Below, one piece after another: positions 3,704-36,001 of a DNA stretch of 37,149 nucleotides. The notes under the pieces were generated by a model that saw only the letters and a program-made list of their open reading frames with translations, was not told where the DNA came from and did no database searches. Source of the stretch: a virus; UHGV virus genome UHGV-0075871, one strand, 5' to 3'. Every line of letters begins with the position of its first letter. Position 1 is the stretch's first letter. The position numbers and the translations under genes were made by a program.

Positions 3704-4288
3704 TTATTGTTTGTTTTTTTCGTTCTGGTTGATGACAAATTCAATGTAACTTTCGATCTTTGCTTTCTCGGTTTCGGGTAACAATGCGTAGCGCGAGCGG
3801 TCATAGTTGATGGTCGCAGGGTCGTGCGGGTGAATCAGTAATTCATAGCCGTGACGCCCGAATGCGGATGCAACATTCTCCAGGGTGGAAATGGAAACGC
3901 TGACCTCATTGTTTAACAGGCGGCTGATTGTCACCTGGGCGACGCCGGATGCGCGGTGAAGTTTTCCCTGTGTTGAAAGGTCGCGGCTTTCGCTCATCCA
4001 GCGTTCCAGGTTGTGAGCCGCCAGCTGACCAATGTCGCTTGGGCCGACAGGCTGAAAACCTTCCTGAGAAAGCGAGCGATCGATATCAAGCCAGTTACGG
4101 GGTTTATTGGCGGCAGCTTCAATTTTTCGCGCAACCTGGTCGCCGATAACCTTCTTGCCAAGAGCCCAGCGGTTTACCAGATTTGCCTGAGTTCCAAGTT
4201 TTTCTGCCATCCGCGTCTGAACACCATTGAATTCACGGTCGATCAAGTCGTTGAGATTTTGCCTGCGGACGTCCTGGATACTTTTCAT
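3704..4288 (-). CDS. phage immunity repressor (CI-like, two HTH motifs, no S24 peptidase domain)
   Basis: 194 aa; two HTH-like segments (TRMAEKLGTQANLVNRWALG and VAQVTISRLLNNEVSVSIS); divergent from a Cro-like gene across an operator-rich spacer; no G-D-S-M / Ser-Lys autocleavage motif. Confidence 0.7.
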   Translation of the reverse strand: MKSIQDVRRQNLNDLIDREFNGVQTRMAEKLGTQANLVNRWALGKKVIGDQVARKIEAAANKPRNWLDIDRSLSQEGFQPVGPSDIGQLAAHNLERWMSESRDLSTQGKLHRASGVAQVTISRLLNNEVSVSISTLENVASAFGRHGYELLIHPHDPATINYDRSRYALLPETEKAKIESYIEFVINQNEKNKQ

Positions 4289-4343
4289 TTTCTGGAAAAT
4301 CGCCTCGTATATGAATCAGTAGATGATTCAATTTAAAGCAATA

Positions 4344-4406
4344 TTACCCAACAGGTAAATGCACCCCATAGGTAACTATCCTTGATTTTTGTTACCTTAT
4401 GGGTGA
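4344..4406. promoter_or_regulatory. OR-like operator cluster between repressor and Cro-like genes
   Basis: TTACCCAACAGGTAA (4344..4358, perfect), GCACCCCATAGGTAA (4361..4375, variant), TTACCTTATGGGTGA (4392..4406, variant): three tandem sites as in lambdoid OR. Confidence 0.6.
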
Positions 4407-4442
4407 ATATTTATTATCTGAAATAAATATCAGGCAATAGCT

Positions 4443-4673
4443 ATGAGCGATAACGGACATTTCGATTTCAAAAAGCACTGGCTTGCACTTACTCCGGATG
4501 AGCGTGAAGCCTTCGCACAGGAAGCCGGAACGACGAGTCACTATATCCAGACTCACTTAACAGGTAAGCGCAAAATGCCAGGTAAAGTATTGATGAATGG
4601 GCTTTTTAAAGCCTGTAAAACAAGACAATGGCTGCGCTCAAAAGCAGAACTGGCATACTTCTTCTACTCATGA
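4443..4673 (+). CDS. Cro-like / small HTH regulator
   Basis: 76 aa ORF divergent from the repressor gene, followed by a terminator; position and size match a cro analogue; sequence family not recognised. Confidence 0.55.
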   Translation: MSDNGHFDFKKHWLALTPDEREAFAQEAGTTSHYIQTHLTGKRKMPGKVLMNGLFKACKTRQWLRSKAELAYFFYS

Positions 4674-4696
4674 TATCCAGCCACAACCCTCTGTAG

Positions 4697-4718
4697 ACCG
4701 CCACCCGGCGGTCTTTTC
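4697..4718 (+). terminator. rho-independent terminator after the Cro-like gene
   Basis: GACCGCC-ACCC-GGCGGTC followed by TTTT. Confidence 0.6.
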
Positions 4719-4728
4719 ATATCTATTC

Positions 4729-4743
4729 GCACCTCAAAGGTAA
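4729..4743. promoter_or_regulatory. variant operator-like palindrome GCACC-N5-GGTAA
   Basis: GCACCTCAAAGGTAA directly after the terminator and upstream of the next small gene. Confidence 0.35.
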
Positions 4744-4823
4744 TAAAAAACCAAATCTGGTTGATCTTTTTTTTGTGTCAGCACAAAATGACCGTAATCC
4801 CAATACTAATAACAGGGCTTACC

Positions 4824-5024
4824 ATGGAAATCATTACACGTATTGATGCCGCAAAGCGCGGACTTAAACGCTACTACACCGGAAAACCATGTAAGCACGG
4901 ACATGACAGTGAACGTTGGGTTTACAACGGACACTGTGTTGAGTGCACCATGGAATCAAACCGTCGCATCAGGGCTGAGATTAAGCAGATCATGATTAAT
5001 TCCTCCCCACAACATTCAAGCTGA
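4824..5024 (+). CDS. small Cys/His-rich hypothetical protein (possible zinc ribbon)
   Basis: ORF track 4761..5024; likely start at MEIITR; KPCKHGHDSERWVYNGHCVEC suggests a Zn-binding ribbon; occupies the cII position but does not resemble lambda CII. Confidence 0.4.
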   Translation: MEIITRIDAAKRGLKRYYTGKPCKHGHDSERWVYNGHCVECTMESNRRIRAEIKQIMINSSPQHSS

Positions 5025-5039
5025 TAGCGGAGATTAATC

Positions 5040-5855
5040 ATGAGCAGACATGCAACAGATTGGGCCTGGGAGACAGATCCAGGTAGCTCATCATTAAAGC
5101 TCATACTGCTCTCGATGGCTGACAGAGCCGATGAATATAACCTCTGCTACCCCAGCATAGAACGCCTCGTTAAAGACACTTGCCTGAATAAAAAAACCGT
5201 GCAGGCCGGGCTTATATCGCTCATGAAAATGGGGCTTATTTCAGATACCGGAGAGAGAAAGGGAGCGACAAAAAGAGTGCGGGTTTTCTCTCTTAATATA
5301 ACCAAAAACGGGAACATTAAAGGCAACCGAGAGGGGGGCAATGAACCCGAAAACGGTAATGTTACCGAAAACGGGAATATACCCAAAAACGGGATGTTGA
5401 ATGATCCCAAAAACGGGATGTTGAATGATCCCAAAAACGGGATCCAGAACCAGTCATATAACCAGTCATTTAACCAAGAGAGGGAGAGCAGGACAAAAAA
5501 CGGGGATTCTGTGCATCATGACCCCGGCGCAAACAACGCCGTGATGAATAACTTTGTTCCTCCTGGTGGGCCAGGGCAATTAGGCAAATTTGTCATGCAT
5601 GAACAATGGCAGCCATCAGATGACTTTCTTCGGAAAAGCTCATTGCAGGGGATCTACCTGGACAGTCTGCCAACGGCACAGGAACTTGCAGAGTTCAGAA
5701 TTTACTGGATGGCTGAGGGTAAGGCATACCATCAGGCACAGTGGGAGCAGAAGCTGGCAAGGCGGCTGCAGATTAGCAGACAGAAGCAATCAACATTACC
5801 TGATAACAACGTTCCGCACTGGAACAGCCCTGAAGCATGGGAGGATTTCTTGTGA
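5040..5855 (+). CDS. replication initiator (lambda O-like position; N-terminal winged-helix, iterons within gene)
   Basis: 271 aa; ATG with GGAG 8 nt upstream; N-terminal HTH-like region; central N/G/K-rich linker encoded by direct DNA repeats; directly upstream of, and overlapping, a lambda P homologue. Confidence 0.7.
   Translation: MSRHATDWAWETDPGSSSLKLILLSMADRADEYNLCYPSIERLVKDTCLNKKTVQAGLISLMKMGLISDTGERKGATKRVRVFSLNITKNGNIKGNREGGNEPENGNVTENGNIPKNGMLNDPKNGMLNDPKNGIQNQSYNQSFNQERESRTKNGDSVHHDPGANNAVMNNFVPPGGPGQLGKFVMHEQWQPSDDFLRKSSLQGIYLDSLPTAQELAEFRIYWMAEGKAYHQAQWEQKLARRLQISRQKQSTLPDNNVPHWNSPEAWEDFL
5302..5447. repeat. iteron array (candidate phage replication origin) inside the initiator gene
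   Basis: About six direct repeats of CC(C/G)AAAACGGGA, including two identical 24-bp copies CCCAAAAACGGGATGTTGAATGAT at 5382..5405 and 5406..5429, then CCCAAAAACGGGATCCAG. Confidence 0.6.
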
Positions 5856-6637
5856 ACAACGTTTTTACCGCGATACAAAACCGTGACGGAGAAGCCCTTT
5901 CTCGCATGTCAGGTTATGAGCATCAGTACACCAACAATGACAACGTGGTGAACATGTCAGCAGAGAGGCTTGTTGATGCCCTTTTCAAACAGCTGAAACA
6001 ACTGTTTCCGGCGGCAGTGGTAACCAACCTGAAGACGCCAGAGCAGGAAGTTGCTGCAAAACAGCAGTGGATTGCTGCGTTTGCCGAAGGGGGGATCCGA
6101 ACCCGTGAACAGGTTTCTGCTGGTATGCGCCACGCCCGCGCCAGTGAGTCTCCGTTCTGGCCGTCGCCAGGGCAATTCATCAAGTGGTGTAAAGACAGCA
6201 AGATGGTTCTTGGCGTCACCATTGACGATGTGATGGCGGAGTTTCACCGGTACAGCAAGGAAAAAAGTTTATATCCTGGTGGTCCCGAAAGATTCCCGTG
6301 GCGACATCCGGTTATGTACTGGGTCGTATGTGATACCCGCCGTGCAATGTATCAGCGCCAGCTTAGCGAGATTGAGGTTGAGAAACACGCGCGCAGGCTG
6401 CTCGATGATTGGGCGAAAAAGGTAGCTTCCGGACAGCAGATACCCGATCCGGTGATCAGCATACAGGCAAAGCGAGAGCCCATGAGTACACCTCCGGACA
6501 CAGGGAGAGACGTTTACCATCCACCAGGGCGAAGTTTCGGGTGCATGCCTAACGCCGCCACCCTTGGGGGAATAACACCGGCGCAGTGGCTGATGGAGGA
6601 ATACAGGCGGGGAAAGGCGGCAGGATTTATCAAGTAA
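5852..6637 (+). CDS. P: replication protein P-like (helicase loader)
   Basis: EQVSAGMRHARASESPFWPSPGQFIKWCKD aligns closely with lambda P EQVNAGMRVARRQNRPFLPSPGQFVAWCRE; GTG start at 5852 with GGGAGGA 7 nt upstream, overlapping the O-like stop (ORF track begins at 5837). Confidence 0.85.
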   Translation: MNNVFTAIQNRDGEALSRMSGYEHQYTNNDNVVNMSAERLVDALFKQLKQLFPAAVVTNLKTPEQEVAAKQQWIAAFAEGGIRTREQVSAGMRHARASESPFWPSPGQFIKWCKDSKMVLGVTIDDVMAEFHRYSKEKSLYPGGPERFPWRHPVMYWVVCDTRRAMYQRQLSEIEVEKHARRLLDDWAKKVASGQQIPDPVISIQAKREPMSTPPDTGRDVYHPPGRSFGCMPNAATLGGITPAQWLMEEYRRGKAAGFIK

Positions 6638-6674
6638 TACCAGCGCGATAGCGCATTTTTTTACGTCTTGATAA

Positions 6675-6751
6675 TTACCTGTTGGGTAATAAAATATTCT
6701 AAAATCTATTGATTTCGTGTCTTATGTGGTTTTTAATTACCTTAGAGGTAA
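6675..6751. promoter_or_regulatory. two TTACC-N5-GGTAA operator-like palindromes upstream of the next operon
   Basis: TTACCTGTTGGGTAA (6675..6689) and TTACCTTAGAGGTAA (6737..6751), the latter overlapping the RBS of the gene starting at 6755. Confidence 0.55.
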
Positions 6752-6754
6752 ATC

Positions 6755-7102
6755 ATGAGAAAACAGATACAGGCTCTTGGTCGACTCAAAACAGGCCAGA
6801 TGAACAAAACAGAATCTGCGTATTGCCAGCACCTTGAGCAGCGTAAACGTGCAGGGGAAATCGCCTGGTATCGATTCGAGGGTATTAAGCTGCGGTTAGC
6901 TGACAACACGTTCTATACGCCCGATTTCGCTGTGATGCTCGCCACCGGAGAGATGGAACTGCACGAAGTGAAAGGGGGATTCTGGACCGACGACGCCAGG
7001 GTGAAAACCAAAGTAGCCGCAGATCAGTATCCGTTCCGAATCATCGGGGTAACGGTTAAACCAAAGAAAGCAGGTGGCGGCTGGAACATCGAAGAGTTCT
7101 GA
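6755..7102 (+). CDS. conserved prophage protein, possible PD-(D/E)xK-type nuclease
   Basis: 115 aa; YTPDFAV ... ELHEVKG resembles a D ... E-x-K nuclease core; family assignment by memory only. Confidence 0.5.
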   Translation: MRKQIQALGRLKTGQMNKTESAYCQHLEQRKRAGEIAWYRFEGIKLRLADNTFYTPDFAVMLATGEMELHEVKGGFWTDDARVKTKVAADQYPFRIIGVTVKPKKAGGGWNIEEF

Positions 7103-31994: not shown

Positions 31995-32020
31995 TGGCAC
32001 AAGAGGAGTGCGATGTAAAT

Positions 32021-32035
32021 TTACCTCAAAGGTAA
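32021..32035. promoter_or_regulatory. TTACC-N5-GGTAA operator-like palindrome
   Basis: TTACCTCAAAGGTAA between the two antirepressor-type genes. Confidence 0.5.
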
Positions 32036-32066
32036 ATATAAGCACTCCACTTGGTAATTGCAAACC

Positions 32067-32324
32067 TTATCTGGTTTGTTTTCGTAATTGTTCGGCACAA
32101 TAGTCGAGATGTGTTTGCAGATCCCGCATAGACATCTGTGAGCTGGTGACGTAGTTAATCAGTGCAGTCAGTTCGGCAAGTGGGCCATCGACATTAAATC
32201 CATCCTTATCGAGATCCCGGAGTAATTTCATCAAGTGCGATCCCTCCACCAGTGACCTGACGCCTCCCGGCGTGTGAATCCTTTCGGTAAATCCGTCTTC
32301 CAGTGGATAGTGATACCGCTGCAT
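32067..32324 (-). CDS. small antirepressor-domain protein (paralogue of the Bro-N protein C-terminus), LexA-controlled
   Basis: ORF track 32067..32342 (TTG start); likely start at the ATG (MQRYHYP...) with GGAGAAG RBS; IHTPGGVRSLVEGSHLMKLLRDLDKDGFNVDGPLAELT...MRDLQTHLDY parallels the C-terminal region of the 31060..31752 product; LexA box about 20 nt upstream. Confidence 0.6.
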   Translation of the reverse strand: MQRYHYPLEDGFTERIHTPGGVRSLVEGSHLMKLLRDLDKDGFNVDGPLAELTALINYVTSSQMSMRDLQTHLDYCAEQLRKQTR

Positions 32325-32345
32325 CTTATCTTCTCCATGCAATAA

Positions 32346-32361
32346 CTGTATATTTATACAG
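32346..32361. promoter_or_regulatory. LexA (SOS) box
   Basis: AACTGTATATTTATACAGTA: CTGT-N8-ACAG with an AT-rich spacer, near-consensus. Confidence 0.7.
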
Positions 32362-32400
32362 TATCAAATAATTTGTTTGCTATCCAGCACGTTTTGCAAA

Positions 32401-32415
32401 TTACCATAAAGGTAA
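32401..32415. promoter_or_regulatory. TTACC-N5-GGTAA operator-like palindrome
   Basis: TTACCATAAAGGTAA in the divergent spacer between the small antirepressor gene and the tailspike gene. Confidence 0.5.
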
Positions 32416-32519
32416 TATCTATTGGTATTTATAGTCTTTCTATACATATATGGTTTTTCAGGTAATAGAATAACCAGATATGCGGCGCAACGGGTGCTGC
32501 GACTATCTGGAGATTTAAC

Positions 32520-35126
32520 ATGACGGTCTCAACCGAAGTTGACCACAACGAATACACCGGTAACGGCGTTACGACATCGTTTCCGTATGCCTTTAGGGTT
32601 TTCAATAAATCTGATTTGATTGTGCAGGTTGTTGATATTCATGAAAATATCACCGTACTGACTCTTGATACTGATTATATAGTTACCGGGGCCGGAGGAT
32701 ACAATGGTGGAAATGTAATATTGTCGAAGGCGTTGGCCAATGGCTATAAGATTTCTATATCACGAGAGCTACCGGTTACACAGGAAACTGATCTGCGCAA
32801 TCAGGGTAAGTTCTTTGCGGAAGTGCATGAGGATGCTTTTGATAAGCTAACGATGCTGATCCAGTTAGTCAAAAGCATGGCTCGGCTGGCTCTTCGTAAA
32901 CCATCATTTAGTGCCACTTACTACGATGCACTCGGCAATCGTATTCGTAACCTTGATGATCCATTATTTCCTCAGGACGCTTCCACGAAGAAATATACAG
33001 ACTCATCTATCAAAGGAGTTATTAACAGCAACATATCTAAAACACTCCGCTTCCCTGAGATAGTAAGCGAAATGGCATCAGCATCTTCTAGGGCAAACTC
33101 AATTCAGGGGTATGACAGTTTAGGACGTCCTGTTCCTATTTTTTCAATTACAGATACTGCTGATTTATGCCTTAAGCTAGCAAGTGTCAACGGATCATCA
33201 TACGTTGGTACCAGATTTGGTGATACACTTGAACAGACGCTAAATAGTACTCAGTTCATTAATTCCTGCAGTTTAGTCACATCTAAAACACTTGAGAGAT
33301 TATCAAGGCCTAACTCAAAAATAGTGTTAGTTGGTGACAGCTTAAGTGCCCCATATAATATAAGCACAGTGGATCGATCAAGCATTTTTGCCGCTCATCT
33401 TAAGAGAGTTTTGCAAGAGAAATTCCCAAGTTCTACTTTATTTAACAGAGCAATTGGTGGAATGAGGTACTATGACCTTGGAAAAGATACACCAGCAATT
33501 ACTTCTTATAACTCACAGTACCCATGGTATTCAGACACGAACAGACGCTGGATTGATTACATTCGTGATATTAACCCTGATGTTGTTATTATTGCTTTTG
33601 GCATGAATGACGGAGATGGTTGGGATGTTGGTAACTTCCCGCAGAAAACTTTTTTTAAATTGATGGCTGAACTGAATGATATTACTTCAATGCCTGAAAT
33701 TGTTTTTTGTACAAATATCCTCCCATCAAGTACCACAAGTGACTCTGAATTTAGCAGTTTAGAAGCTCAGAATGGACGAAACGCAATGGCAGGATGGACT
33801 CGTTCATATGCGCAGTATGTTGGCGCTGGGCTTATTGATTTTAATCGTTACTTTAATGCAGTACGTGATGGGGTTGATGTGGTTTCTGGTAATTATGTGA
33901 GGGCAACTATTTCAAAAGATGTTACATTGCCTTATGAATATGAAGATTTATCATATTCTTACTCCGTAAGGATTCAATTTGTAGATATTGAAATCCTTAG
34001 TTCTGGGATTCAATTCCAATTGTCTTCATACCATAATAATTTCATTAACTTGAAATATACAGGCTCTGCCTTTGAAACCACACACTATACTGCATCAACA
34101 GGGACTGTAGGTGTTTTTATGCGCAATATTGTTAAATTATCTGCTCCACTTGGTTTGTTTTCAGTTGAATTTAAACTTATTGGAAACTTCGTTGAGATAA
34201 CACTTAACGATAACGAAATACTATTCAGTAGTAATATTGTAAGGTTTGGTGGTTTATTTTATCCTCGCATCGGTGGTTCAGGGAACTGCAAAATTGATAT
34301 GCAGCCGATGATTCCTGTTAAGCTTAAAAAGTCAATGACTAACGAAGATGTTTATTCGCCTGGTAGTGGTAATAATAAGAATCACCCAACAGCTTATGCA
34401 AGCTCTAGAATATATCCACCGGTTCTTGATGGATGCTTTAATAGCATTTTCTTTAAAGAGATGAAAACTGATGGCGTTTACCTTGATTTTATCACAGGAC
34501 AATATGAAATAGTTAATAGCTATTCTCCCAACTTATCTAAAAAAGGAAACGTATCTGATATTCTTTCCTTTGTTTCAGGTGACCTTATTTATTCCTATTC
34601 ATCAGATATTTTAGAAGGGGCTGTTTTTGGTTCCGCAAATAAATGCTATATAGACAGTAATAAGTTTTTGCTAGCTAATCAGAAATTAAGAGGGATTACT
34701 GTTATTGTTGAGGGGAAACAATATGCAGGTGGAGAATTGGCGTATTATGTCACACTTGGTGAGGGGTTAACTGGTAACCGTCTGCATATGACAATAACCG
34801 ATAATAATATTCCACGCTGTACTGCAGTGATGAATGGAGTATCTTCTGATCTTATCGGTTCAAATTCGTTTCAGGTAAACCCATCTATTTTTCACAAACA
34901 TACTAGTTCAATCGATGTCAATAATGGAATTCATTCTATGGCATACGATAATCACATGGCCTCTGGTAACATTGCAGAAACTGAAATATCTGAACTTACT
35001 CAGGATATTGTATCTAAAATAAAACTTGGTTATGCAAGTGAAACGACTTCTGGAGTTGATGTTGTTATTGCCAGAGTGCAGGTTATTTTTGATGGATTAA
35101 CATCATCTGGAGTTTGCAGGAAATAA
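32520..35126 (+). CDS. tailspike / tail fibre protein with central SGNH (GDSL)-like hydrolase domain
   Basis: 868 aa; conserved-looking N-terminal particle-binding region; KIVLVGDSLSAPYN (GDS block) and IIAFGMNDG (G-x-N-D block) about 80 aa apart; AT-rich distal two-thirds typical of exchanged receptor-binding modules; no clear D-x-x-H block seen. Confidence 0.75.
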   Translation: MTVSTEVDHNEYTGNGVTTSFPYAFRVFNKSDLIVQVVDIHENITVLTLDTDYIVTGAGGYNGGNVILSKALANGYKISISRELPVTQETDLRNQGKFFAEVHEDAFDKLTMLIQLVKSMARLALRKPSFSATYYDALGNRIRNLDDPLFPQDASTKKYTDSSIKGVINSNISKTLRFPEIVSEMASASSRANSIQGYDSLGRPVPIFSITDTADLCLKLASVNGSSYVGTRFGDTLEQTLNSTQFINSCSLVTSKTLERLSRPNSKIVLVGDSLSAPYNISTVDRSSIFAAHLKRVLQEKFPSSTLFNRAIGGMRYYDLGKDTPAITSYNSQYPWYSDTNRRWIDYIRDINPDVVIIAFGMNDGDGWDVGNFPQKTFFKLMAELNDITSMPEIVFCTNILPSSTTSDSEFSSLEAQNGRNAMAGWTRSYAQYVGAGLIDFNRYFNAVRDGVDVVSGNYVRATISKDVTLPYEYEDLSYSYSVRIQFVDIEILSSGIQFQLSSYHNNFINLKYTGSAFETTHYTASTGTVGVFMRNIVKLSAPLGLFSVEFKLIGNFVEITLNDNEILFSSNIVRFGGLFYPRIGGSGNCKIDMQPMIPVKLKKSMTNEDVYSPGSGNNKNHPTAYASSRIYPPVLDGCFNSIFFKEMKTDGVYLDFITGQYEIVNSYSPNLSKKGNVSDILSFVSGDLIYSYSSDILEGAVFGSANKCYIDSNKFLLANQKLRGITVIVEGKQYAGGELAYYVTLGEGLTGNRLHMTITDNNIPRCTAVMNGVSSDLIGSNSFQVNPSIFHKHTSSIDVNNGIHSMAYDNHMASGNIAETEISELTQDIVSKIKLGYASETTSGVDVVIARVQVIFDGLTSSGVCRK

Positions 35127-35289
35127 ATTTTGGCAACTAATAAACATCCTTACATTTATGGTTGTTTATGAATATTGTCATCAAAAACCAATGAATTGAT
35201 AGTTATTTCAGAATATCTGATGGTTAAACATATATGGTTTGTTGTGTGTGGTGATCTGTAAGTGAAGAGGTTCGATATGTACAAAAAAA

Positions 35290-35706
35290 ATGGTGTGTGC
35301 TATGTCGGTTAACATAACAACTGAGTCTTTAAATCAATGGCTTAGTGTGAGCTCTCTTGCTGCGGTTATCGTAGGCGTTCCGCCAGAGGTGGCGCTCGGT
35401 GCTCTTGCTGGTGCGGTAATTTTTGTTACCTCTGCGGTAGAGTATCCAATTCGTCGTCGCGTACTCTTGTCGATGCTCAGCTTTCTCTGCGGACTTCTTT
35501 TCTACAAACCAGCAGCATCAATTCTTATCGGCATAGCCAGCCTGATCCCTACCATCACGCAGGACTCTTTTGAAAAAGGTATTGTTTTCTCTGCTGGCGC
35601 ATTCGTGTCAGCAATTGTCGCTGTGCGTATTGGTATATGGCTCTACCACCGTTCAGACAATCCACGCGATTTAATTCCGGGGAGAAAAGACGATGGTAAC
35701 GCATGA
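35290..35706 (+). CDS. holin-like membrane protein
   Basis: 138 aa with about three hydrophobic helices and a charged C-terminus; first gene of the lysis cassette. Confidence 0.5.
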   Translation: MVCAMSVNITTESLNQWLSVSSLAAVIVGVPPEVALGALAGAVIFVTSAVEYPIRRRVLLSMLSFLCGLLFYKPAASILIGIASLIPTITQDSFEKGIVFSAGAFVSAIVAVRIGIWLYHRSDNPRDLIPGRKDDGNA

Positions 35707-36001
35707 GTTTTTTTTGCTTATCACCAATGCAGTTATTTGTACTGGCATAGCAATTCGCGTTGTCACATTCCGGCGTAACGGCTCTCAACATCGAAGATGG
35801 GGAGGGTGGCTTGCTTATTTCCTTATTGTTGCTGCGGCCAGTATTCCTGTTCGTGTCGTCTATGCAATCTGGTTACGCACGCCAATGGCTGTGGATTTAT
35901 CTGAGGTCATTATCAACGCTGTCATGCTTGCCGCGGTTATTAAAACACGCGGTAACGTTGTTCAGATTTTCAAAATATCGAGGTCTAAACATGGAGATTA
36001 A
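35693..36001 (+). CDS. second small membrane protein of the lysis cassette (holin/antiholin-like)
   Basis: 102 aa, about three hydrophobic helices; overlaps the holin-like gene end and the endolysin start. Confidence 0.45.

What the first reader, a model, noticed from the sequence alone, without database searches (positions are those of the whole stretch)
5302..5447. Iteron array inside the replication-initiator gene (candidate origin)
About six direct repeats of CC(C/G)AAAACGGGA, two of them identical 24-mers, encode the N/G/K-rich linker of the O-like protein. This mirrors lambda, where the origin iterons lie inside O and are bound by the O protein. The AT-rich stretch expected beside the iterons should lie just downstream.
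Basis: partly seen in the sequence, partly recalled or inferred. Interest (0 to 1): 0.45.

Follow-up and report, generated by a model that had tools for sequence, protein, structure and literature searches.

The report
Origin iterons inside phage initiator gene
The repeats are real and are very probably the sites where this phiV10-like E. coli phage's replication initiator binds its own gene to start DNA copying, as in phage lambda; this is an ordinary, unannotated member of a known kind of origin.

Summary
Six strong copies of CC(A/G)AAAACGG(G/T)A lie at 5302-5442, against 0.5 expected in the whole 37-kb window, and none occurs elsewhere. They sit in the linker of a 271-aa initiator with an HTH_36 winged-helix N-domain and a DnaT-like C-domain. 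A lambda-P-family helicase loader gene follows.

- Relatives with only 36-58% identical N-domains carry arrays with the same core at the same place in the gene.
- In 39 of 54 protein clusters the core is read in more than one reading frame (PKNG / PKTG / QKR), so the DNA is what is conserved.
- Against distant relatives the array is 75-86% identical in DNA, versus 52-63% for the folded N-domain.
- The 16-bp unit ATCCC-AAAAAC-GGGAT is a shortened version of lambda's annotated iteron ATCCCTC-AAAAC-GAGGGA.
- True Phage_rep_O genes also use the short form.
- Edwardsiella phage GF-2 joins this N-domain and array to a lambda-O C-terminus.

The predicted AT-rich tract is weak here (57.5% AT against 51% background). 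It is a family-conserved block of tandem 9-13-bp units, 5444-5490 in the window. Copy number varies among E. coli prophages. I rate it a new member of a known kind, of modest interest.

The parts
5040..5855 (+). Replication initiator gene (271 aa), lambda-O-like in organisation
   Evidence: ORF listed. Pfam HTH_36 (aa 18-67) plus DnaT domain (aa 184-252). phrog_1032 'replication initiation protein', E=1.4e-108. 98% identical to phiV10 p43.
5040..5300 (+). Coding region of the N-terminal winged-helix DNA-binding domain (aa 1-87)
   Evidence: HTH_36. Alignment A1 with 11 phage relatives. Weak MarR/ArsR-type PDB matches. It shares the N-terminal part of phrog_678/345 profiles with lambda O.
5299..5314 (+). 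Iteron 1, TAACCAAAAACGGGAA
5323..5338 (+). Degenerate iteron-like copy GCAACCGAGAGGGGGG (GAGAG centre); weak
   Evidence: It fills the 45-bp gap, giving 24 and 21-bp spacings.
5344..5359 (+). Iteron 2, AACCCGAAAACGGTAA
5362..5377 (+). Iteron 3, TTACCGAAAACGGGAA (10/16 self-complementary)
5380..5395 (+). Iteron 4, TACCCAAAAACGGGAT
5404..5419 (+). Iteron 5, ATCCCAAAAACGGGAT (10/16 self-complementary; arms ATCCC/GGGAT)
5428..5443 (+). Iteron 6, ATCCCAAAAACGGGAT
5444..5490 (+). Candidate unwinding / helicase-entry block: CAGAACCAGTCAT ATAACCAGTCAT TTAACCAAGAGAG plus a purine run; 12-bp tandem units
   Evidence: TRF finds 12 bp x2.4. The equivalent block of 9-13-bp tandem units follows the last iteron in most relatives. 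It is AT-enriched in 40/43 relatives, but only +6 points here. The function is inferred.
5491..5506 (+). Distal weak iteron-like copy GGACAAAAAACGGGGA
   Evidence: Two mismatches to the 12-mer core and no dyad arms.
5580..5834 (+). Coding region of the C-terminal DnaT-like domain (aa 181-265)
   Evidence: Pfam DnaT at 1.1e-15. PDB DnaT chains 9zbt, 6aep and 4ou6 at E=7e-21 to 4e-20.
5852..6637 (+). Lambda-P-family helicase loader gene. GTG 5852 overlaps the initiator's stop codon; an ATG at 5837 is the alternative start.
   Evidence: Pfam Phage_lambda_P at 1.5e-56. phrog_109 'P-like helicase loader'. phiV10 annotation.

Best explanation
The array is the initiator-binding part of a lambda-type replication origin that lies inside the initiator's own gene.

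**Shown here**
- The gene encodes a winged-helix N-domain, a low-complexity linker and a DnaT-like C-domain.
- The linker DNA carries six strong and up to three weak copies of a 16-bp, partly dyad-symmetric unit: TCCC / GGGA arms 10 bp apart around an A5 tract.
- This unit is conserved as DNA across a wide family of phage initiators.
- A block of short tandem repeats follows the array.
- A lambda-P-type loader gene comes next.

**Inferred**
- Dimers of the N-domain bind each unit and build an 'O-some'-like complex.
- This complex strains and opens the adjacent tandem-repeat block at 5444-5490.
- The C-domain holds single-stranded DNA and/or docks the P-DnaB complex, so that host DnaB is loaded.
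- Early rightward transcription through the gene probably assists, as it does in lambda.
- Iteron number drifts by in-frame duplications and deletions of 18, 24 or 63 bp.
For: **The repeats are real and unique to this spot.** 6 hits against 0.51 expected, none elsewhere in the window; TRF arrays.

**The protein is an initiator with a P-type loader downstream**.

**Arrays with the same core sit 3' of the N-domain in 11 annotated phages.** Their N-domains are 36-58% identical to the window's.

**The reverse search finds the same gene context.** A scan of IMG/VR for three tandem cores, using DNA alone, returned 120 loci.
- In 85 of them the array lies in an ORF just after a match to the N-domain HMM.
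- Most of the others lie in other putative winged-helix initiators (no Pfam match for the two largest groups). Four are true Phage_rep_O genes.

**The element is constrained as DNA.**
- The core occupies more than one reading frame in 39 of 54 clusters. Frame totals are 171 / 59 / 47.
- DNA identity is 75-86% in the array region, against 52-63% in the N-domain coding region.

**Likeness to lambda.**
- Lambda's annotated iterons have the same arms and the same AAAAC centre.
- Phage GF-2 fuses this N-domain and array to a lambda-O C-terminal domain and a P gene.
- Iteron copy number differs between lambda (4) and Stx phages (6) (PMC7466680). Here alleles range from 263 to 311 aa, and the listed 279-311-aa alleles carry 5-12 units.

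**The downstream block is a family feature.**
- Best self-match is 15.5/24 on average, against 10.4 in control segments.
- It is AT-enriched in 40 of 43 relatives, p=4e-12.

**The alternative module has its own repeats.** The module in ZX5 carries a different set of in-gene repeats: 5 of 6 GTAACGC copies lie in its initiator gene, against 0.31 expected for the locus.

**The same inference is already in print for relatives.** It was published for Obolenskvirus phages (PMC10888812).
Against: - No binding, unwinding or replication data exist for this protein family in the literature I could search.
- In this window all strong copies are in one reading frame, so the window alone cannot separate DNA-level from peptide-level constraint.
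- The adjacent segment is only mildly AT-rich. It is not the least stable stretch near the gene: the intergenic regions at 4300-4440 and 6660-6760 are less stable.
- Homology of the N-domain to lambda O's is weak in direct profile comparison (hhalign probability 41%).
- The GC-skew minimum near 4-5 kb coincides with the switch in transcription direction, so it is uninformative.
Confidence: 0.8

Rival explanations
1. The repeats are initiator-binding sites, but they act in autoregulation or titration of the initiator. DNA opening and helicase loading happen elsewhere, for example in the AT-rich intergenic regions at 4300-4440 or 6660-6760.
For: Those intergenic stretches are the least stable DNA near the gene. 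The block beside the array is only 57.5% AT.
Against: A conserved, AT-enriched tandem block directly abuts the last iteron across the family, including in GC-rich hosts: 0.60 against 0.30, and 0.57 against 0.36. In lambda, iterons plus the adjacent tract are the origin (PMC7466680). The intergenic AT-rich regions hold operator-like repeats and annotated terminators.
Confidence: 0.1
2. The repeats are only a peptide feature: a flexible N/G/K-rich linker expanded by replication slippage. The DNA repetition would then be a by-product with no role as DNA.
For: All strong copies in the window are in frame and encode (P/T)(K/E)NG. Copy number changes only in multiples of 3 bp.
Against: - The same DNA core is translated in two or three frames in 39 of 54 clusters.
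- Spacings of 17, 22 and 23 bp are common.
- The array DNA is more conserved than the folded domain's DNA.
- The units have dyad arms.
- The core is shared with genes of a different N-domain family.
Confidence: 0.05
3. The array is bound by some other factor (a host protein or another phage protein), or it mainly serves as a recombination joint for swapping initiator domains.
For: Domain swaps occur around this region. GF-2 carries a lambda-O C-terminus, and relatives carry several different C-domains.
Against: The array always travels with the N-terminal DNA-binding domain, not with the C-domain. I saw no resemblance to a host-factor site, but I did not scan for DnaA-box or IHF consensus sequences. 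Recombination joints would not require a conserved dyad core.
Confidence: 0.05

Closest known systems
Phage lambda ori-lambda with O protein (Pfam Phage_rep_O) and P
   Same: - The origin lies inside the initiator gene, in the linker after an N-terminal winged-helix domain.
- The iterons have TCCC/GGGA arms around an AAAAC centre.
- An AT-enriched segment lies immediately 3' of the iterons.
- A P-family loader gene comes next (PMC7466680).
   Different: - The unit is 16 bp with arms 10 bp apart, not 18-19 bp with arms 13 bp apart.
- There are 6-9 copies, not 4.
- The N-domain scores as HTH_36, not Phage_rep_O, and direct profile similarity is weak.
- The C-domain is DnaT-like, not the lambda-O C-domain.
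- The adjoining tract is tandem 12-mers with only modest AT excess.
Stx phages 933W / P27 origins with six iterons
   Same: Extra iterons add residues to the initiator's linker, and copy number differs between close relatives (PMC7466680).
   Different: Those are true lambda-O alleles with 18-bp iterons.
Obolenskvirus (Acinetobacter phages AB1, AP22, Brutus, Scipio) replication-protein gene
   Same: Same N-domain family (47-51% identity). Same core repeats in the middle of the gene. The authors already suggested that the origin lies there (PMC10888812).
   Different: Different C-domain. A DnaB-type helicase gene follows instead of a P-type loader.
Edwardsiella phage GF-2 'O' protein (phrog_391)
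   Same: 58% identical N-domain. Iterons ATCCCAAAATTGGGAT with 24-bp spacing, followed by tandem 12-mers. 85% DNA identity to the window over the array.
   Different: It carries a lambda-O C-terminal domain and the lambda-like palindrome after the tandem block.
E. coli DnaT (primosomal protein I)
   Same: The C-terminal 85 residues match DnaT's ssDNA-binding domain at E=7e-21. This is why GenBank and PGAP call the protein 'primosomal protein' or 'DnaT-like'.
   Different: The N-terminal two-thirds are unrelated to DnaT. The gene context is a phage initiator-loader module, not replication restart.
Iteron plasmids (Rep_3 RepA / pi / TrfA)
   Same: Winged-helix initiators bind tandem direct repeats next to an unwinding element that has short repeats (PMC4980987 and PMC10602881, as listed).
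   Different: Plasmid iterons lie outside the rep gene. There was no Rep_3 match here.

Membership tests
Lambda-type origin (ori inside the initiator gene) | Tandem initiator-binding repeats located within the initiator's coding sequence, after the DNA-binding domain | tested here: met
   Six strong copies at nt 260-404 of an 816-nt gene, directly after the HTH_36 domain.
Lambda-type origin (ori inside the initiator gene) | Repeats constrained as DNA, independent of reading frame | tested here: met
   Met for the family: 39 of 54 clusters have cores in more than one frame, and lambda's own iterons are in frames 0, 2, 2, 1. In this window all copies share one frame.
Lambda-type origin (ori inside the initiator gene) | Dyad-symmetric unit with G/C arms around an A-tract | tested here: met
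   ATCCC-AAAAAC-GGGAT. Three copies are 10/16 self-complementary, which 2.8% of window 16-mers reach. Lambda's iterons score 6-16 of 19.
Lambda-type origin (ori inside the initiator gene) | AT-rich unwinding tract adjoining the iterons | tested here: inconclusive
   In the window the tract is 57.5% AT against 51%, at the 8th-11th instability percentile. Across the family the excess averages +12.9 points and is positive in 40 of 43.
Lambda-type origin (ori inside the initiator gene) | The initiator binds the repeats and the fragment supports initiator/loader-dependent replication | not testable with these tools
   Needs EMSA or footprinting and an origin-cloning assay.
Pfam Phage_rep_O (lambda O N-terminal domain) | Match to PF04492 above the gathering score | tested here: not met
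   There is no PF04492 hit; HTH_36 matches instead. hhalign against lambda-type N-domains gives probability 41%. Both domains match the N-terminal part of phrog_678/345. So this is at best a remote relative, not a member.
HTH_36 / phrog_1032 phage replication initiators | HTH_36 domain above cut-off and a full-length phrog_1032 match | tested here: met
   40.9 bits against a cut-off of 25. phrog_1032 E=1.4e-108 over residues 1-269.
E. coli DnaT (replication-restart primosomal protein) | Full-length similarity to DnaT, including its N-terminal domain | tested here: not met
   Only residues 180-265 match DnaT residues 85-170. The 'primosomal protein' name in the records reflects this one domain.
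Lambda P-type helicase loader partner | A Phage_lambda_P gene immediately downstream | tested here: met
   PF06992 at E=1.5e-56.

The most novel reading that the evidence does not exclude
The array plus the adjoining block of 9-13-bp tandem units (usually beginning GAAC or GAAT) may define one widespread and so far unannotated origin architecture. It is shared by initiators with at least three different winged-helix N-domains: HTH_36-type, Phage_rep_O-type and a Bacteroidetes-like type. In this reading the tandem block is a sequence-specific element, for example for strand-specific ssDNA capture by the initiator (analogous to DnaA-trios or the plasmid 13-mers), and not merely easy-melting DNA.
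Probability: 0.25. Interest if true: 0.5.

Novelty: new member of a known kind. Interest (0 to 1): 0.3.

Why it matters
- It places the probable origin of phiV10-like (Uetakevirus) phages, and of a prophage module found in about 8% of complete E. coli genomes, at a defined 200-bp segment.
- It corrects the misleading 'primosomal protein / DnaT' annotation of the initiator.
- It gives a simple DNA signature, tandem CCNAAAACGG cores followed by short tandem units, that locates origins in many uncharacterised phage genomes.
- It is useful for engineering phiV10-based reporter phages and for building origin-based incompatibility or exclusion tools.
- It does not change how we think phage replication starts.

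Tried and rejected
- **AlphaFold2 on the single sequence.** The model was unusable (mean pLDDT 37.5), so I made no fold search.
- **The search for related loci with the N-domain alignment.** I replaced it with a DNA-pattern scan.
- **Direct hhalign of this N-domain against lambda-type N-domains.** It was weak (probability 41%), so I do not claim membership of Phage_rep_O.
- **Cumulative GC skew.** The minimum is near 4-5 kb but coincides with the divergent-transcription switch, so it says nothing about the origin.
- **The epsilon15 genome paper.** It could not be retrieved. Searches for the repeat sequence, and for 'iteron' together with phiV10, epsilon15 or Uetakevirus, found nothing relevant. 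The ZX5 and PAS61 papers do not discuss the origin.
- **A strong AT-rich tract right of the iterons.** None is present in this window.
- **The minus-strand ORF 5147-5434.** I reject it as a gene; it is a translation of the repeats.

Full report
**What is there**

The window is a phiV10-like (Uetakevirus) temperate phage or prophage. Region 4400-6700 is 98% identical to phiV10, PAS61 and phiv142-3.

ORF 5040-5855 encodes a 271-aa protein.
- It has a Pfam HTH_36 domain at aa 18-67 and a DnaT domain at aa 184-252.
- It gives a full-length match to phrog_1032 'replication initiation protein' (E=1.4e-108).
- Its C-terminal 85 residues match solved DnaT structures (E=7e-21).

The next gene is a lambda-P-family helicase loader (PF06992, E=1.5e-56). 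Upstream lie a divergent repressor and a cro-like gene. This is the layout of a lambdoid early-right operon.

**Checking the observation**

- CCNAAAACGGGA with at most one mismatch occurs six times, all on the + strand between 5302 and 5442. Shuffles give 0.51 expected for the whole 37-kb window, and there are no hits elsewhere.
- Tandem Repeats Finder reports a perfect 24-bp array (x2.6, 5382-5443), an 18-bp array (5345-5394) and a 12-bp array AACCAGTCATAT (x2.4, 5448-5476).
- The full unit is a 16-mer. The two best copies read ATCCCAAAAACGGGAT, with 5-bp inverted arms around AAAAAC. That makes them 10/16 self-complementary, a level reached by 2.8% of 16-mers in the window.
- Weaker copies lie at 5491-5506, and two with a GAGAG centre lie at 5323-5338 and 5471-5486.
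- All strong copies share one reading frame and encode (P/T)(K/E)NG.

**DNA element or peptide repeat?**

The window alone cannot answer this, so I turned to relatives.

A tblastn search with the N-domain found phages of Edwardsiella, Vibrio, Acinetobacter, Burkholderia and Pseudomonas, an EBPR podovirus and E. coli PPompW prophages, at 36-58% identity. Almost every one has a repeat array at nt 270-470 of the gene. Most of these arrays share a CC-N-A(A/T)...-(C/T)GG core. Spacings are often not multiples of three:
- Bcep176: 17, 17, 22, 22, 22;
- MD-2021a: 17, 17, 22;
- AB1: 17, 22, 24.

I then searched in the opposite direction, scanning IMG/VR for three tandem cores as DNA only.
- In 85 of them the array lies in an ORF directly after a match to the N-domain HMM.
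- Most of the remainder are other putative winged-helix initiators (the two largest groups, the Bacteroidetes-like ones, have no Pfam match). They include four genuine Phage_rep_O genes with TTCCCGAAAACGGGAAAA units.

After clustering at 80% identity there are 54 clusters. In 39 of them the core is read in more than one frame, appearing as PKNG, PKTG or QKR. Frame totals are 171 / 59 / 47.

DNA conservation is the reverse of what a floppy linker would show. Against GF-2 and Vibrio phage H20, only the array region aligns by blastn. DNA identity there is 75-86%, compared with 52-63% for the codon-aligned N-domain. The constrained object is therefore the DNA.

**Comparison with lambda**

Lambda's GenBank record annotates four O-binding iterons, for example ATCCCTCAAAACGAGGGA. 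They lie in frames 0, 2, 2 and 1 of gene O. The window's unit keeps the ATCCC / GGGAT arms and the AAAAC centre but lacks the inner TC / GA. As a result the arms are 10 bp apart rather than 13 bp.

Footprinting of lambda and Stx-phage O proteins shows contacts at the G tracks and bending at the A-tract. It also shows that iteron number varies (4 against 6), with matching insertions in the O linker (PMC7466680). The same variation is seen here:
- the BP9 record lacks one 24-mer and phiV10 has an extra 12-mer;
- alleles of this gene run from 263 aa (the BP9 phage record) to 311 aa, and the listed E. coli alleles (279-311 aa) carry 5-12 units, including duplications of 63-bp blocks.

Edwardsiella phage GF-2 links the two systems directly. 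It joins this N-domain, ATCCCAAAATTGGGAT iterons and tandem 12-mers to a lambda-O C-terminal domain and a P gene.

Membership of Phage_rep_O itself is not met. There is no PF04492 hit, and the direct profile comparison is weak (probability 41%). Both N-domains do match the same part of phrog_678 and phrog_345.

**The segment to the right of the array**

In the window, 5444-5483 is only 57.5% AT against 51.4% background, and it is not the least stable DNA nearby.

It is nonetheless part of a conserved architecture. In most relatives the last iteron is followed at once by two to four tandem units of 9-13 bp, usually starting GAAC or GAAT. The window has CAGAACCAGTCAT ATAACCAGTCAT TTAACCAAGAGAG.
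- Best self-match over 24 nt averages 15.5, against 10.4 in control segments of the same genes. 20 of 43 relatives reach 16 or more, against 0.7% of controls.
- 25 of 43 periods are not multiples of three.
- This segment is AT-enriched relative to the rest of the gene in 40 of 43 relatives (mean +12.9 points, p=4e-12). The excess is large in GC-rich hosts.

I take it to be the unwinding and helicase-entry element. That is an inference.

**Mechanism proposed**

N-domain dimers bind the 16-mers and assemble a wrapped complex. The adjacent tandem block then opens. The DnaT-like C-domain binds the exposed strand and/or docks the P-DnaB complex, and host DnaB is loaded. Only the anatomy and the conservation are shown here; binding, opening and loading are inferred by analogy with lambda.

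**Rivals**

- Autoregulatory sites with opening elsewhere (confidence 0.1).
- A purely peptide-level repeat (0.05). The frame data and the DNA-conservation data argue against this.
- Binding by another factor, or a role as a recombination joint (0.05).

**Module exchange**

ZX5, TL-2011b and HEMP4 replace window 4767-6106 with a different module. That span covers a small ORF, the whole initiator and the 5' end of P. The replacement initiator has another N-domain and its own in-gene repeats: five of the six GTAACGC copies in the locus lie in it, against 0.31 expected. This is consistent with initiator and sites travelling together.

**Novelty**

- None of the 15 GenBank records I inspected annotates the array.
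- PGAP names the protein 'DnaT-like ssDNA-binding domain-containing protein' in the listed hits; the gene is in 424 of 5426 complete E. coli genomes.
- I found no paper linking iterons with phiV10, epsilon15 or Uetakevirus.
- However, authors of an Obolenskvirus study already noted direct repeats in the middle of the homologous replication-protein gene and suggested the origin lies there, citing lambda (PMC10888812).

So this is a new, unannotated member of a well-known kind of origin. Its distinguishing details are the short 16-bp iterons, the tandem-unit block and the DnaT-like C-domain. Interest is modest.

Noticed in passing
window 5448-5483 (and the equivalent position in L004-L015 and many of L017-L136): A block of two to four tandem 9-13-bp units, usually starting GAAC or GAAT, follows the last iteron across the family. 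Periods are often not multiples of 3. It is AT-enriched in 40 of 43 relatives.
   Followed up: yes
window 4359-4408 and 4730-4749: Inverted repeat ATGCACCCCATAGGTAAC / GTTACCTTATGGGTGAAT between the divergent repressor (3704-4288, -) and the cro-like ORF (4443-4673, +), with a third related copy after the cro-like gene. These are probably operators.
   Followed up: no
window 4767-6106 versus L002 (phage ZX5): ZX5, TL-2011b and HEMP4 carry a different cassette here: a small ORF, the whole initiator and the 5' end of P. Its initiator has another N-domain, the same DnaT-like C-domain, and GTAACGC / GCGTTAC repeats inside the gene.
   Followed up: partly
L003 (PP488543, phage BP9, 138 kb) and PP350014 (PH444, 115 kb): Records classified or sized as large virulent phages carry this phiV10-like replication module. 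In BP9 it lies near the end of the record. These may be chimeric assemblies or contaminating prophage DNA.
   Followed up: no
window 5040-5855: GenBank and PGAP name the product 'primosomal protein I', 'DnaT' or 'DnaT-like ssDNA-binding domain-containing protein'. Only the last 85 residues resemble DnaT; the protein is a phage initiator. The gene is present in 424 of 5426 complete E. coli genomes and is 100% identical in strain TUM10828.
   Followed up: yes
window 5323-5338 and 5471-5486: Two iteron-like copies have a GAGAG centre instead of the A-tract (CCGAGAGGGGGG and CCAAGAGAGGGA). One lies inside the array and one at the end of the 12-mer block. Their meaning is unknown.
   Followed up: no
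window 5147-5434, minus strand: A 95-aa ORF with FNIPFLG repeats is the reverse-strand reading of the iterons. It is not a gene.
   Followed up: partly
window 5837-5855: The initiator's stop codon TGA (5853-5855) overlaps GTG 5852, the P start annotated in phiV10 and preceded by GGAGGA. This suggests translational coupling. An in-frame ATG at 5837 is the alternative start.
   Followed up: no
window 32000-36000: A low-GC block (0.37-0.40 against about 0.50 elsewhere), probably an acquired accessory region.
   Followed up: no
L067, L058 and 23 further IMG/VR loci: Initiator-like genes with no Pfam match, possibly from Bacteroidetes phages, carry GTCCGAAAACGGAC iterons after an unrelated-looking putative winged-helix N-domain, followed by a very AT-rich run. 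This extends the same origin design to another protein family.
   Followed up: partly
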